Of a stretch of DNA of 64,000 nt, positions 17,674 to 50,921 are shown in pieces (the stretch's first letter is position 1; the number at the start of each line of letters is the position of its first letter). The position numbers and the translations under genes were made by a program. The stretch lies in the IMG/VR virus record IMGVR_UViG_3300020051_000004. One strand, written 5' to 3'. A model generated the notes under the pieces. That model made no database searches and was not told the origin of the DNA. It was given only the letters and a program-made list of their open reading frames with translations. Source of the stretch: a virus.

Positions 17674-17707
17674 TTGACATTGACGAGATTCCACTGTAGT
17701 ATAAAAC
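17674..17707 (+). promoter_or_regulatory. sigma70-type leaderless promoter
   Basis: TTGACA-17-TAGTAT-5nt-ATG(17708). Confidence 0.75.
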
Positions 17708-18121
17708 ATGAACATTTTCCAATTCATGGCCGAAAGCCCGTTGTTGACCTTTTTTCTCTTTTGGATGACAACCAATATGTCATTTAAGGCGTGGAATCGT
17801 TTAATGAGAGTAATTAATATCCGAAAACATGGCTGGCCACCTCCCCACTGCGACGCAGATGGAGATTTTAAACCAGAACAAGAAAAAGACGACGAAAATT
17901 AATCCAACCCCTAAAACAATATGAAATCCCTCCTCAACAACTGGTCCTACCAAGAAACCCGCCTCGCAAACGCCCGCAAACAAATGTGTGATCGCGGCGC
18001 AACAAGTGATGCCGCAATCGCCGAAACGCTCATTGACCAAAAGAAAAACAACCGCCGATACGATGGTATTATGAGTAAAGGTCAATATCGAAGGACTGTT
18101 AGTTCCTTTGTGTGAACAATT

Positions 18122-18254
18122 TTCGCCGTGCCTCCGCTGGCCGATCTGGAAGGATGCCCTGACCCGTTCGTTCGGGGAAAAGAGTGGCCGATAGATACAG
18201 AAAGTCTAAAGTAGCGTAACATCCACTCCTTGCGGAGAACTTTAGAGCGGCGAA
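18122..18254 (+). ncRNA. putative structured ncRNA A (~133 nt)
   Basis: Closed by TTCGCCG/CGGCGAA; internal TCTAAAGT/ACTTTAGA stem containing CTCC-TTGC-GGAG; intergenic; follows AACAATTT. Confidence 0.6.
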
Positions 18255-18269
18255 TTAAATTTCGAGATT

Positions 18270-18332
18270 GCGAGTCAATCCCCGATTCAATGAAGCGATT
18301 CTCGACTTCGATAGGGGCAAAATAGACCGCCA
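18270..18332 (+). ncRNA. putative irregular hairpin RNA ending in CCA
   Basis: GCG(A)GTC/GACCGC, CCCC/GGGG and GAAG-CGA..TCG-A-CTTC nested stems; 3' CCA followed by AATTTTT. Confidence 0.4.
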
Positions 18333-18342
18333 AATTTTTAAC

Positions 18343-18428
18343 GAGCACATGGTAGATAAAGGCGGAATGGTATGTCGGGCTAGAAATAGCCTCTACAAGT
18401 GAAGGTTCAACCCCTTCTGTGCTCGCCA
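18343..18428 (+). ncRNA. tRNA-like RNA lacking an anticodon arm, CCA encoded
   Basis: Acceptor GAGCACA/TGTGCTC-G-CCA; T arm GAAGG-TTCAACC-CCTTC; interior has helix GTAGA/TCTAC enclosing a D-like hairpin GGCG-GAATGGTA-TGTC and GGCTA-GAAA-TAGCC. Confidence 0.75.
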
Positions 18429-18435
18429 ACAATTT

Positions 18436-18534
18436 GAGAACGTAGTTCAATGGTAGAACATAGAAATCCGAGACGCCGAAAGGTGGAGTAGGTATGCAAA
18501 TGCTAGATGGGAGTTCGATTCTCCCCGTATCTCA
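18436..18534 (+). ncRNA. tRNA-like RNA with the anticodon arm replaced by GNRA-capped hairpins
   Basis: Acceptor GAGAACG/CGT(A)TCTC; canonical D arm GTTC-AATGGTA-GAAC; T arm GGGAG-TTCGATT-CTCCC; ~45-nt central domain with GCC-GAAA-GGT and GTAT-GCAA-ATGC. Confidence 0.75.
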
Positions 18535-18832
18535 ACAACCACCAATTCGCCGACAATATGAGTACATGGACACACATCGAAGGAGAACACACCTCCAAAA
18601 AAGCCTCAATCCGCAAAATCATCGAATTCGTTCTCGACGGAGAAGATGTAGTTGCCGAATACGACCATAACGAATTCTGGGTTCGTTTTGAGCATGGCGG
18701 GGAAAAAACCGCTAACAGCATTAGCGAATCATTGATTACTTTAAGAGTTGCGACAAAAACGCGCGTTTAAATTTAACGGCAACAATTGAATATTCAGTTT
18801 GACAGTTGGCAGGCTATCCACTATATTCACAC

Positions 18833-19741
18833 ATGACTAAATACAAAGCAATCATCCTACCCGAAAAAGTTTTTATCGCAGACTCCCTTAATAAGGATTG
18901 GTGCGCAGTAGCCCTAGATAAAGATTTTCTTTTTGACGGAAGAAATGCACTACCAACTTTAAAGAAGGGCTGGTACGAATTGCCAAATCTTCCAAAGAAA
19001 GTGGAGAAATTAATTGCGCCGCCCAAAATTATTTCTTTTTATAAGCTCAAAGAAGGATTCGTTGCAACAGAAAAACTTCCAGAACGCCTTCCAGAATACT
19101 TCTTCAATTGGGACGGCGATGAAGAAGAATACAACAATGCCGAAATCAAAGGCTTATATGATCCAGTTTACGAACAAAAGGAGCCATACTTTGAAAACGT
19201 AGAATTTGAGATTGAAACAATTGCTCACAAAGGCTCAAGCTGGAAATTCCTCGCGGCCCCAAAAAATGTTCAACATCTCTTAGTTGACGAAATCATTAAG
19301 TTGCCAGAACTTTTGCAAGATGAGCATTGCTTCTTATCTTCGGAAGAAAGTTATTGCCGCATCAGAGACTTTGTAAAGTTAAATATTAATCCACGGGTTG
19401 CTTATGTGAGTTCTGATTATAATTTTCATTTTGTAGTTTCTAAAAAGATCCCTCTACACGAAAAAGAAAAATATCGAAAGTGCTTAAACATTTTCGCTAA
19501 GCGGCCAAAGTATGTCGATGACTACCGAGTTAACCGCAGCATTGAAGTTTATAACTTAACTCCAAACGAAAAAAACAACCGAGAATACCAAAACTCTCAG
19601 TTAGCTCCAAAATTTGAAGGCGCGAACTACGAAGACTTGGAGAACAATATCAATAACTACTTGGCAGAACTTATTGAAAAAATCAACGAACCAGTGCAAG
19701 ATTGTCCGCATTGCAAAGGTAGAGGAGTTGTCGCACCATGA
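18833..19741 (+). CDS. hypothetical protein with C-terminal CxxCxGxG zinc-ribbon motif
   Basis: Start reassigned to ATG 18833 behind TTGACA(18799)-17-TATATT; ends DCPHCKGRGV. Confidence 0.65.
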   Translation: MTKYKAIILPEKVFIADSLNKDWCAVALDKDFLFDGRNALPTLKKGWYELPNLPKKVEKLIAPPKIISFYKLKEGFVATEKLPERLPEYFFNWDGDEEEYNNAEIKGLYDPVYEQKEPYFENVEFEIETIAHKGSSWKFLAAPKNVQHLLVDEIIKLPELLQDEHCFLSSEESYCRIRDFVKLNINPRVAYVSSDYNFHFVVSKKIPLHEKEKYRKCLNIFAKRPKYVDDYRVNRSIEVYNLTPNEKNNREYQNSQLAPKFEGANYEDLENNINNYLAELIEKINEPVQDCPHCKGRGVVAP

Positions 19742-38909: not shown

Positions 38910-39098
38910 ATGAACGAACTCATTACATGGACAATCGCCCACAGTAGCGACATTTACGTTGCTATCACAAGCCTCGTTACCGCTGCTGCCGCAATAACGG
39001 CTCTCACGCCATCGCCTAAAGATGACGGCGCAATTAAGAAGGTCAGAGAAATTCTCGACAAGGTTGCCTTCAATTTTGGTTTTGCCAAAAACAAGTAA
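38910..39098 (+). CDS. putative holin
   Basis: 62 aa; TM segment (AITSLVTAAAAITALTP), TPSPKDD turn and basic tail ..AFNFGFAKNK; followed by a terminator. Confidence 0.65.
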   Translation: MNELITWTIAHSSDIYVAITSLVTAAAAITALTPSPKDDGAIKKVREILDKVAFNFGFAKNK

Positions 39099-39117
39099 CA
39101 ATTAGCCAACCAATTCG

Positions 39118-39149
39118 CCCGCGCATCTTTTTTAGGTGCGCGGGTTTTT
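39118..39149 (+). terminator. intrinsic terminator
   Basis: CCCGCGCATC-loop-GGTGCGCGGG followed by TTTTTG, between convergent genes. Confidence 0.85.
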
Positions 39150-39152
39150 GTT

Positions 39153-39785
39153 TTACAGATACTTCTCAAAAGCCTCTCTTAACTTCTGCGGAATAACCTC
39201 ATACTTTCGGCGCAACTTAGGCTCACATGCCGCCAAAATCTCAGGTTGGTAAAGAGGCTTCTTGAACCATTCGCCTGTTTCCGCTACCCAAAGGTATCCA
39301 TAAAGATAAACGCTTGCCATTCTAGCATAACTTTCTGGCGAAACAATGTGAGAAAACTTTCGGCGGATTAATTTTAGGGCCATTTTTTCGCATTCTAGCT
39401 CAATTTTTATAGCAGCTTGAGTTAGTTCGTTGATTTTGTAGTGTTTGGCCCCTTCTAGCCAGTAGAAAAATTTAGAGTGGTTGGCTGAAATTGTCGGGTC
39501 GTTATAAATACTATGAGGGTTTTTGAACTGCAATGAGTGGCAATATTCGTGGCACAACAAAAAAACAAACCTCTGCAACCCTCCTCCTAAGCAGACAGCC
39601 AACTTCCTCTCAAAAGAGTCAAAATACCCTCCACATTTGCCACATCCTAATTTCACGCTAGAATGTTCAGACACAATGAATTGAATATTGCGGCGCTTTA
39701 AATCTTCTGACACCTCATCAACGAACGAGAGAACATCCTTGGGCATCTTTGAGAGGATTTTTTTGGCGCGGGTGGATGCTTTCAT
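39153..39785 (-). CDS. HEXXH zinc metallopeptidase-like protein
   Basis: CGGYF...LLCHEYCHSLQ...ELECE. Confidence 0.65.
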   Translation of the reverse strand: MKASTRAKKILSKMPKDVLSFVDEVSEDLKRRNIQFIVSEHSSVKLGCGKCGGYFDSFERKLAVCLGGGLQRFVFLLCHEYCHSLQFKNPHSIYNDPTISANHSKFFYWLEGAKHYKINELTQAAIKIELECEKMALKLIRRKFSHIVSPESYARMASVYLYGYLWVAETGEWFKKPLYQPEILAACEPKLRRKYEVIPQKLREAFEKYL

Positions 39786-50831: not shown

Positions 50832-50921
50832 GAGCGCGTGGCGGAATAGTAGACGCGGCGCATAGTAGGACGCCAAAACCGAAACGTGCTTGCATTGCAC
50901 GTTCAAATCCTGCCGCGCTTT
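50832..50921 (+). ncRNA. tRNA-like RNA with an elongated non-canonical anticodon arm
   Basis: Acceptor GAGCGCG/CGCGCTT; Leu-type D arm GCG-GAATAGTAGA-CGC; T arm GCACG-TTCAAAT-CCTGC (one mismatch); central arm GCAT-AGTA-GG..CC-GAAAC-GTGC. Confidence 0.65.

What the first reader, a model, noticed from the sequence alone, without database searches (positions are those of the whole stretch)
18343..18428. Anticodon-less tRNA mimic with a perfect acceptor stem, T arm and encoded CCA
Seen: a 7/7 acceptor stem, discriminator G, CCA and a 5/5 T stem. Between them an extra helix (GTAGA/TCTAC) encloses a Leu-type D-like hairpin (GGCG-GAATGGTA-TGTC) and a GGCTA-GAAA-TAGCC hairpin. That hairpin resembles the variable arm of this phage's real tRNA-Leu (ACTA-GAAA-TAGT). 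There is no anticodon arm. Intact pairing argues against simple decay. Established: SerRS and LeuRS do not read the anticodon, and the tmRNA TLD and bacterial Y RNAs are tRNA mimics without anticodon arms. Here no tag ORF is present and no Ro/Rsr gene lies in the window. Inference: a chargeable but non-decoding RNA, for example an aminoacyl donor, an EF-Tu or RelA decoy, or bait for anticodon nucleases.
Basis: partly seen in the sequence, partly recalled or inferred. Interest (0 to 1): 0.85.

Follow-up and report, generated by a model that had tools for sequence, protein, structure and literature searches.

The report
Non-decoding tRNA-shaped RNA gene in phage
An uncultured large phage carries a real, conserved 86-base RNA gene shaped like a tRNA but with no anticodon; it is a new example of the phage "tRNA-like stable RNAs" known since T4 and T5, whose job is still unknown.

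Summary
Window 18343-18428 (+) folds as described: a 7-bp acceptor stem, G73, encoded CCA, a T arm, and an extra 5-bp helix enclosing a D-arm-like hairpin and a GAAA-capped hairpin. There is no anticodon loop.

It is not chance or decay. A homologue in a related metagenomic phage (L027:345-432, 73% identical) keeps all 24 base pairs, 8 of them through changes on both sides, and keeps G73-CCA. ARAGORN calls neither copy. Rfam's tRNA model scores the window copy 26.7 bits, below its 29-bit threshold. No other Rfam family matches.

The family is rare. I found it in two phage lineages only, and not in INPHARED or IMG/VR.

The gene sits in an array of four structured RNAs inside an accessory-gene region, about 400 bp upstream of a Gad1 (anti-Gabija) homologue. 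Related phages carry different tRNA-like cassettes, or a true tRNA-Gln, at the same place.

The kind is known: T5 RNA1 and T4 rnaC/rnaD are phage tRNA-like stable RNAs of unknown function. This scan has reported other anticodon-less phage tRNA mimics on other DNA, but not this family.

Charging and decoy roles remain untested. G73 argues against LeuRS and would fit a Ser-type identity.

The parts
18343..18349 (+). acceptor stem, 5' strand (7 nt)
   Evidence: pairs 7/7 with 18418-18424; 2 of the 7 pairs changed on both sides in L027
18350..18351 (+). UG linker (positions 8-9 of a tRNA)
   Evidence: invariant between window and L027
18352..18356 (+). extra helix X, 5' strand
   Evidence: pairs 5/5 with 18392-18396; 3 of the 5 pairs changed on both sides in L027
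18357..18360 (+). UAAA junction
   Evidence: invariant between the two copies
18361..18376 (+). D-arm-like hairpin: 4-bp stem and 8-nt loop carrying the GG of a D loop
   Evidence: 1 compensatory pair; the loop resembles class II tRNA D loops, including the window's tRNA-Leu and T5 RNA1
18378..18391 (+). 5-bp hairpin capped by a GAAA tetraloop; adjoins helix X with no linker, so it can stack on it
   Evidence: the outer 3 pairs are kept in L027, where the inner part and loop differ (6-nt loop); 10-nt core identical to the tRNA-Leu variable arm
18392..18396 (+). extra helix X, 3' strand
18397..18400 (+). AAGU linker before the T arm
   Evidence: invariant between the two copies
18401..18417 (+). 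T arm: 5-bp stem and 7-nt T loop (UUCAACC)
   Evidence: 2 of the 5 pairs changed on both sides in L027
18418..18424 (+). acceptor stem, 3' strand
18425..18428 (+). discriminator G73 and encoded CCA
   Evidence: identical in L027; the window's canonical tRNA-Leu and tRNA-Arg do not encode CCA
18122..18335 (+). two further structured non-coding elements heading the same array (A about 18122-18250, B about 18255-18335)
   Evidence: no ORF; homologous stretch in L027:80-262 at 55% identity; no Rfam match
18436..18533 (+). neighbouring tRNA-framed RNA (E2): a conserved 44-nt module replaces the anticodon arm
   Evidence: Rfam tRNA 31.3 bits; 13 homologues; 98.6% of cells paired; 9 of 17 pairs compensatory
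18833..19741 (+). Gad1 (anti-Gabija) homologue downstream of the array
   Evidence: tblastn 36% identity, E about 1e-45, to SPbeta/phi3T Gad1; Pfam PF25705 on all relatives
17674..17702 (+). sigma70-like promoter that could drive two small ORFs and the RNA array
   Evidence: consensus scan only, 10 of 12 matches; inference

Best explanation
Window 18343-18428 is a gene for an 86-nt tRNA-shaped RNA that cannot decode.

Origin and shape. It looks derived from a class II (Leu/Ser-type) tRNA. It keeps the acceptor stem, G73-CCA, the T arm and a D arm with its GG. The anticodon arm is absent. A new 5-bp helix clamps the D arm and a variable-arm-like hairpin together. That hairpin adjoins the new helix with no linker. 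The two could therefore stack into a roughly 10-bp arm sealed by a GAAA loop, where a tRNA has its D-stem/anticodon-stem stack (inference from the secondary structure).

Maturation. It is transcribed inside an array of tRNA-like RNAs. I infer that it is cut out by the host tRNA maturation enzymes: RNase P at 18343 and 3' trimming to the encoded CCA.

Function. Most likely it works by mimicry, occupying a host protein that recognises the tRNA body or the CCA end. Given its place in a fast-changing accessory region beside gad1, the most likely target is a tRNA-directed defence enzyme.

My odds: real, conserved, non-decoding tRNA-shaped RNA gene, about 0.9. Matured like a tRNA, about 0.7. Acts by occupying a tRNA-binding protein, about 0.45. 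That protein is a defence factor, about 0.25.
For: - Structure: the fold is as described.
- Conservation: the homologue L027:345-432 keeps 24/24 pairs. Eight changed on both sides, none on one side only, and all the slid-partner controls give 0. RNAalifold agrees.
- Selection: E1 is 73% identical between the two phages, like the gad1 coding DNA (74%) and above the neighbouring RNAs A and B (55%). The minus-strand ORF across it is not conserved.
- Not a decoder: ARAGORN makes no call in either copy. Rfam tRNA is below threshold.
- tRNA-type context: in L027 it starts 7 nt after a canonical tRNA-Gln that also encodes CCA. G73-CCA is kept in both copies although the window's true tRNAs do not encode CCA.
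- Class II ancestry: the D loop and hairpin resemble the window's tRNA-Leu. The best non-self hits of model R1 include tRNA-Leu and tRNA-Ser.
- Context: a Gad1 homologue lies about 400 bp downstream. Related phages carry different cassettes at the same site.
- Precedent: T5 RNA1 and T4 rnaC/rnaD are annotated stable tRNA-like RNAs in phage tRNA clusters.
Against: - Only two diverged copies are known, so the covariation rests on one pairwise comparison.
- The single-sequence fold energy is unremarkable (z -1.66 in the window, -0.87 in L027).
- The GAAA cap is not kept in L027, so the sealed tip is not strictly conserved.
- Close relatives lack the element: L026 and L024 have other RNAs at that place. 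It is therefore dispensable.
- Nearness to gad1 is weak evidence. In other relatives gad1 directly follows a sulfotransferase or a kinase-like gene with no RNA array.
- No tRNA-directed enzyme gene (PTH, RtcB, CCA enzyme, Ro) was seen in the window.
Confidence: 0.5

Rival explanations
1. Processing signal only. The tRNA-like fold serves as an RNase P / 3'-end processing site. It cuts the polycistronic transcript and sets the ends of neighbouring RNAs or mRNAs (tRNA punctuation). The excised RNA has no function of its own.
For: It lies inside an operon-like run of small ORFs and RNAs with no terminator between them. Every cassette in the related arrays ends with CCA or a similar end followed by an A/T-rich spacer. 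An acceptor/T-arm minihelix is enough for RNase P (established knowledge).
Against: A punctuation site would need only the acceptor and T arms. Yet helix X and the D-like hairpin also show compensatory changes (4 of their 9 pairs), and the junction strings UG, UAAA and AAGU are invariant.
Confidence: 0.2
2. Chargeable non-decoding carrier. The RNA is aminoacylated, most plausibly by SerRS. It then serves as an aminoacyl donor for a non-ribosomal transferase, or titrates EF-Tu or RelA.
For: The acceptor stem is intact and G73-CCA is conserved. The D loop GG and the T loop are present, so the elbow contact is possible. E. coli tRNA-Leu lacking the anticodon and variable arms is still charged, and G73 favours Ser identity (PMC9976931).
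Against: No assay was done. G73 disfavours LeuRS. SerRS reads the position of a long variable arm, which here is buried in a different junction. Pair 2-71 is A-U in the window but G-C in L027, so a typical Ser acceptor determinant is not kept. No aminoacyl-tRNA-dependent transferase was found in the window.
Confidence: 0.15
3. Decaying pseudogene of a class II tRNA that lost its anticodon arm by deletion.
For: Sequence likeness of the D arm and hairpin to the phage's own tRNA-Leu. Patchy presence among relatives. Sub-threshold Rfam tRNA score.
Against: At 27% divergence all 24 pairs are kept, 8 by double changes and none by a single change. Helix X is a gain, not a loss. G73-CCA is kept.
Confidence: 0.05

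Closest known systems
Phage T5 RNA1, annotated 'tRNA-like stable RNA with unknown functions' (NC_005859 30501-30644), with RNAI and RNAIII beside it
   Same: Encoded in a phage tRNA/small-RNA cluster. It has an acceptor-like stem, a Leu-type D arm, a T arm nearly identical over 22 nt, no usable anticodon arm, and unknown function.
   Different: T5 RNA1 is 144 nt with a large insert. It has no helix X. Model R1 scores it only 17 bits, so it is not the same sequence family.
Phage T4 rnaC and rnaD (species 1 and 2 stable RNAs)
   Same: Small stable RNAs at the end of a phage tRNA cluster. From my own knowledge they are processed with the tRNAs, and their function is still unknown.
   Different: 119-139 nt, with a different fold. 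No R1 match.
Class II tRNAs (Leu, Ser), including the window's own tRNA-Leu(UAA)
   Same: Acceptor stem, T arm, D loop with GG, and a GAAA-capped hairpin like the variable arm. Their synthetases do not read the anticodon (PMC9976931).
   Different: No anticodon arm. The D arm is displaced by 9 nt and enclosed with the hairpin by a new helix. Not called by ARAGORN and below the Rfam threshold.
Engineered minimal tRNA-Leu lacking the anticodon and variable arms
   Same: A tRNA body without an anticodon arm that keeps the D/T-loop contacts and can still be charged (PMC9976931).
   Different: Those need A73, while this RNA has G73. They are laboratory constructs, not natural genes.
tmRNA tRNA-like domain and bacterial YrlA (Y RNA-like) tRNA mimics
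   Same: Acceptor/T-arm mimicry without an anticodon.
   Different: No G3-U70, no tag reading frame and no tmRNA model match. The ends are in the acceptor stem, not in a Ro-binding stem. No Ro gene was found.

Membership tests
Canonical tRNA (Rfam RF00005) | 7-bp acceptor stem with discriminator base | tested here: met
   7/7 pairs plus G73
Canonical tRNA (Rfam RF00005) | T arm with a 5-bp stem and a 7-nt T loop of UUCRANY type | tested here: met
Canonical tRNA (Rfam RF00005) | Anticodon arm with a 7-nt loop | tested here: not met
   No such arm in either copy. ARAGORN makes no call. The only candidate hairpin has a 4-nt loop (window) or a 6-nt loop (L027).
Canonical tRNA (Rfam RF00005) | Score at or above the family's gathering threshold | tested here: not met
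   26.7 bits against 29
Canonical tRNA (Rfam RF00005) | D arm directly after positions 8-9 | tested here: not met
   A D-like hairpin exists but follows a 9-nt insert and lies inside helix X.
tmRNA (tRNA-like domain) | G3-U70 alanine identity pair, tag reading frame, tmRNA model match | tested here: not met
   Pair 3-70 is G-C in both copies. No tmRNA by ARAGORN or Rfam.
YrlA / bacterial Y RNA | 5' and 3' ends form a Ro-binding stem; Ro60/Rsr gene nearby | tested here: not met
   The ends are in the acceptor stem. No TROVE match in the scanned ORFs. No Rfam Y RNA match.
Phage tRNA-like stable RNAs (T5 RNA1, T4 rnaC/rnaD): a functional kind, not a sequence family | Encoded in a phage tRNA or small-RNA cluster, tRNA-like ends, non-decoding | tested here: met
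Phage tRNA-like stable RNAs (T5 RNA1, T4 rnaC/rnaD) | Accumulates as a stable processed RNA in infected cells | not testable with these tools
Phage tRNA-like stable RNAs (T5 RNA1, T4 rnaC/rnaD) | Sequence/structure homology to T5 RNA1 or T4 rnaC/rnaD | tested here: not met
   R1 gives 17 bits on T5 RNA1 and nothing on rnaC/rnaD.

The most novel reading that the evidence does not exclude
The element is one cassette of an exchangeable phage array of anti-defence RNAs. It would be a tRNA decoy with a sealed tip, matured like a tRNA and carrying a genuine CCA end. It would soak up a host immune enzyme that attacks tRNAs (an anticodon nuclease, or a toxin that modifies the CCA end) and so protect the real tRNA pool. 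Related phages would swap such cassettes to match the defences they meet.
Probability: 0.2. Interest if true: 0.85.

Novelty: new variant of a known kind. Interest (0 to 1): 0.5.

Why it matters
Phage tRNA-like stable RNAs have been known for about fifty years (T4 species 1 and 2, T5 RNA1) without an assigned function. This small example (86 nt) has a simple, covariation-supported architecture. It keeps a tRNA's top half and elbow while the decoding end is closed off. It sits in a modular array beside a proven class of anti-defence gene.

That makes it a tractable test object for three questions:
- Is such an RNA processed?
- Is it charged?
- Does it bind a host factor?

If it proves to be a decoy for tRNA-directed immunity, it would add an RNA class to the phage counter-defence repertoire.

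Tried and rejected
- Known Rfam family: only a sub-threshold tRNA match, nothing else, with both gathering and permissive thresholds.
- Refolding into a cloverleaf: ARAGORN finds none. The Rfam alignment needs mispaired D and anticodon stems.
- Protein-coding explanation: the 122-aa minus-strand ORF over the array has stops in all frames in L027.
- Cultured phages: no homologue in INPHARED by blastn. The only hits are T-arm matches to tRNAs and to T5 RNA1.
- IMG/VR: three pattern scans found no homologue. The seven hits include short matches that appear to lie inside a coding region and ordinary tRNAs; all score 27 bits or less with R1.
- Prokaryote genomes: six pattern hits, none in a tRNA-like context by eye, i.e. 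chance matches.
- L005:2586-2692 has a similar layout (acceptor, enclosing helix, D-like hairpin, T arm). It scores only 25 bits with R1, the level of ordinary tRNAs, so I do not count it as a member.
- L001, from the closest relative (83% Gad1 identity), is cut just upstream of E2. What remains there is the 3' end of a tRNA-Gln, not of this element.
- The first protein-based locus search in IMG/VR found nothing.
- Literature searches for anticodon-less phage tRNA mimics, decoys or T5 tRNA-like RNAs found no paper describing this family.

Full report
**The observation**

The minimum-energy fold of the 86 nt gives:
- a 7-bp acceptor stem;
- a two-base linker;
- a 5-bp helix (here called X);
- inside X, a 4-bp hairpin with an 8-nt D-loop-like loop, one G, and a 5-bp hairpin with a GAAA loop;
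- a four-base linker;
- a T arm with a 5-bp stem and a 7-nt loop;
- then G and CCA.

The fold energy alone is not remarkable (z -1.66; 13 of 200 shuffles fold as well). ARAGORN does not call a tRNA here. With permissive thresholds Rfam's tRNA model aligns end to end at 26.7 bits, under its 29-bit gathering score, and needs mispaired D and anticodon stems. No other family matches.

**Surroundings**

The window is a phage with many small plus-strand ORFs, an amidase-type endolysin and tail genes. No whole genome is held for it.

The element is the third of four non-coding structured units in an ORF-free stretch, 18116-18540.
- Two units of unknown type lie upstream, at about 18122-18250 and 18255-18335.
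- Seven bases downstream lies a second tRNA-framed RNA, E2 (18436-18533). It passes the Rfam tRNA threshold (31.3 bits), but 44 nt stand where the 17-nt anticodon arm should be.

About 400 bp further on is a homologue of Gad1, the phage inhibitor of the Gabija defence system. It shows 36% identity to SPbeta/phi3T Gad1 (E about 1e-45), and Pfam PF25705 is recorded on all its relatives.

None of the ORFs scanned (those of 140 aa or more outside the tail genes, plus the small neighbours) matched a peptidyl-tRNA hydrolase, RNA ligase, CCA-adding enzyme, synthetase or Ro protein.

**Relatives**

The Gad1 protein has 30 relatives at 54-83% identity, on metagenomic phage contigs of up to 164 kb. I fetched the DNA around twelve of them.

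One, L027 (Gad1 74% identical), carries a clear homologue of the element at L027:345-432. The two copies are 73% identical. That equals the gad1 coding DNA (74%) and exceeds the two upstream RNAs (55%).

All 24 base pairs are kept in both copies. Eight differ on both sides:

| Helix | Pairs changed on both sides |
|---|---|
| Acceptor stem | 2 |
| Helix X | 3 |
| D-like hairpin | 1 |
| T stem | 2 |

No pair differs on one side only. Sliding the partners by one to three columns drops pairing to 33-48% with no double changes. RNAalifold predicts the same structure without my input.

The linkers, the D-like loop apart from one base, G73 and CCA are unchanged. The capped hairpin keeps its three outer pairs, but in L027 it has a longer, non-GNRA loop.

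The minus-strand ORF that crosses the element in the window is broken in every frame in L027. A covariance model built from the two copies scores them 107 and 112 bits. Everything else in 280 kb of related loci scores 31 bits or less, and those hits are ordinary tRNAs with class II Leu and Ser among the best.

So the element is a selectively maintained RNA structure, not a decaying tRNA. It is also rare:
- no match in 50,697 cultured-phage records;
- none in IMG/VR;
- only chance pattern hits in prokaryote genomes.

**What it is**

The order of parts is that of a class II tRNA from which the anticodon arm has been removed: D arm, one base, then a variable-arm-like hairpin. The whole is clamped by the new helix X.
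- The D loop keeps the GG that contacts the T loop in tRNAs.
- The capped hairpin shares a 10-base core with the variable arm of the window's own tRNA-Leu.
- That hairpin joins helix X with no linker, so the two may stack into a roughly 10-bp arm with a closed tip, about the length of a tRNA's D-stem plus anticodon-stem stack. This step is inference from the secondary structure.

In L027 the element starts seven bases after a canonical tRNA-Gln that also encodes CCA. This is the spacing of a tRNA operon, so maturation by RNase P and 3' trimming is the natural expectation (inference). The window's true tRNA-Leu and tRNA-Arg do not encode CCA. That makes the conserved CCA here more notable.

**The array is modular**

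At the same place, relatives carry other units:

| Locus | What stands at the site |
|---|---|
| L001, L027 | a tRNA-Gln |
| L023, L026 | a 125-nt acceptor/T-arm RNA |
| L024 | a minihelix-like RNA of about 50 nt |
| L005, L008 | other acceptor-stem RNAs |

Most of these end in a discriminator base plus CCA, followed by an A/T-rich spacer. The element is absent from L024 and L026. In L002, L010 and L011 gad1 has no RNA array before it at all. The link to gad1 is therefore one of neighbourhood in an accessory region, not of fixed partnership.

**How it may work**

I favour action by tRNA mimicry on a protein that reads the tRNA body or the CCA end. A tRNA-directed defence enzyme is the most likely target because of the setting. 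This is inference, and I give it about one chance in four or five.

A pure processing-signal role would not explain the compensatory changes in helix X and the D-like hairpin, or the invariant junction strings.

Charging is possible in principle. E. coli tRNA-Leu without its anticodon and variable arms is still leucylated if A73 and the D/T-loop contacts remain, and changing A73 to G73 shifts identity towards serine (PMC9976931). Both copies have G73, which argues against LeuRS despite the Leu-like D arm. A Ser-type identity is conceivable, but pair 2-71 is not conserved.

**Comparison with what is known**

The kind is known.
- The T5 genome record annotates RNA1 as a "tRNA-like stable RNA with unknown functions", next to RNAI and RNAIII in its tRNA region. 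RNA1 folds with a Leu-type D arm, a large insert and a T arm almost identical to the one here.
- T4 annotates rnaC and rnaD as small stable RNAs at the end of its tRNA cluster.

Neither is a sequence relative. tmRNA and YrlA-type mimics fail their defining features (no G3-U70, no tag frame, ends in the acceptor stem, no Ro gene).

Notes from this scan describe several other anticodon-less tRNA-shaped RNAs in phages on other DNA, but no look-alike of this sequence. My literature searches found no description of this family.

**Verdict**

- It is a new architectural variant of a known but unexplained kind of phage RNA, rare in current data, and small and well enough defined to be a good experimental object.

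Noticed in passing
window 18436-18533 (+); also L001:31-131, L005:2793-2893, L008:2343-2443, L014:2605-2703, L016:2057-2158, L017:3521-3620(-), L018:975-1077, L019:24-127(-), L021:346-446(-), L022:3346-3447(-), L023:667-767(-), L026:92-192: The neighbouring tRNA-framed RNA (E2) belongs to a widespread family, often inside large phage tRNA arrays of 17-27 tRNAs. Its acceptor, D and T arms are normal, with a Gly-like D arm. The anticodon arm is replaced by a nearly invariant ~44-nt module. The module has a 2-4-bp closing stem that covaries strongly, a purine-rich internal loop that reads like a bulged-G / loop-E motif (my reading, not tested), a 4-bp stem with a GAAA loop, and a conserved CAAAUG strand. 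98.6% of cells are paired and 9 of 17 pairs are compensatory. Some copies encode CCA and some do not. It is not in INPHARED.
   Followed up: partly
window 18122-18335 (+); L027:80-262: Two further ORF-free structured units head the array and are conserved in L027 at 55% identity. They match no Rfam family and their single-sequence fold is not significant. L005 and L008 share a different conserved RNA at the head of their arrays.
   Followed up: partly
window 50832-50921 (+): ARAGORN calls a 90-nt 'tRNA-???' with a four-base anticodon. It has a Leu-type D arm very like that of the element studied, an odd anticodon stem and loop, a long variable region and a weak T stem. R1 scores it 17.5 bits. 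It could be a quadruplet-reading tRNA or another non-decoding mimic.
   Followed up: no
window 18799-18833 (+); same place in L001, L005, L008, L024, L026, L027: A near-consensus sigma70-type promoter (TTGACA, 17 nt, TATATT) ends about 5 nt before the gad1 ATG. The TTGACA box is conserved at that spot in the relatives I read. This suggests a leaderless or nearly leaderless early gad1 mRNA.
   Followed up: no
L024:96-140 and L025:96-140: In these relatives the E2 gene is cut off just after its D arm and runs straight into the start of the next small ORF. This is an apparent deletion that removed the module, T arm and 3' acceptor strand.
   Followed up: no
L014:4636-4710: A phage tRNA array of 27 genes includes a tRNA with a CUA anticodon, a possible amber suppressor, which ARAGORN labels tRNA-Pyl.
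   Followed up: no
L001:2768-2931: Sub-threshold match to the Hatchet ribozyme model (31.2 bits against a gathering score of 51; E 0.032) in a relative of this phage.
   Followed up: no
window 39063-39155 (+): Sub-threshold match to the trpB ncRNA motif (36.6 bits against a gathering score of 59).
   Followed up: no
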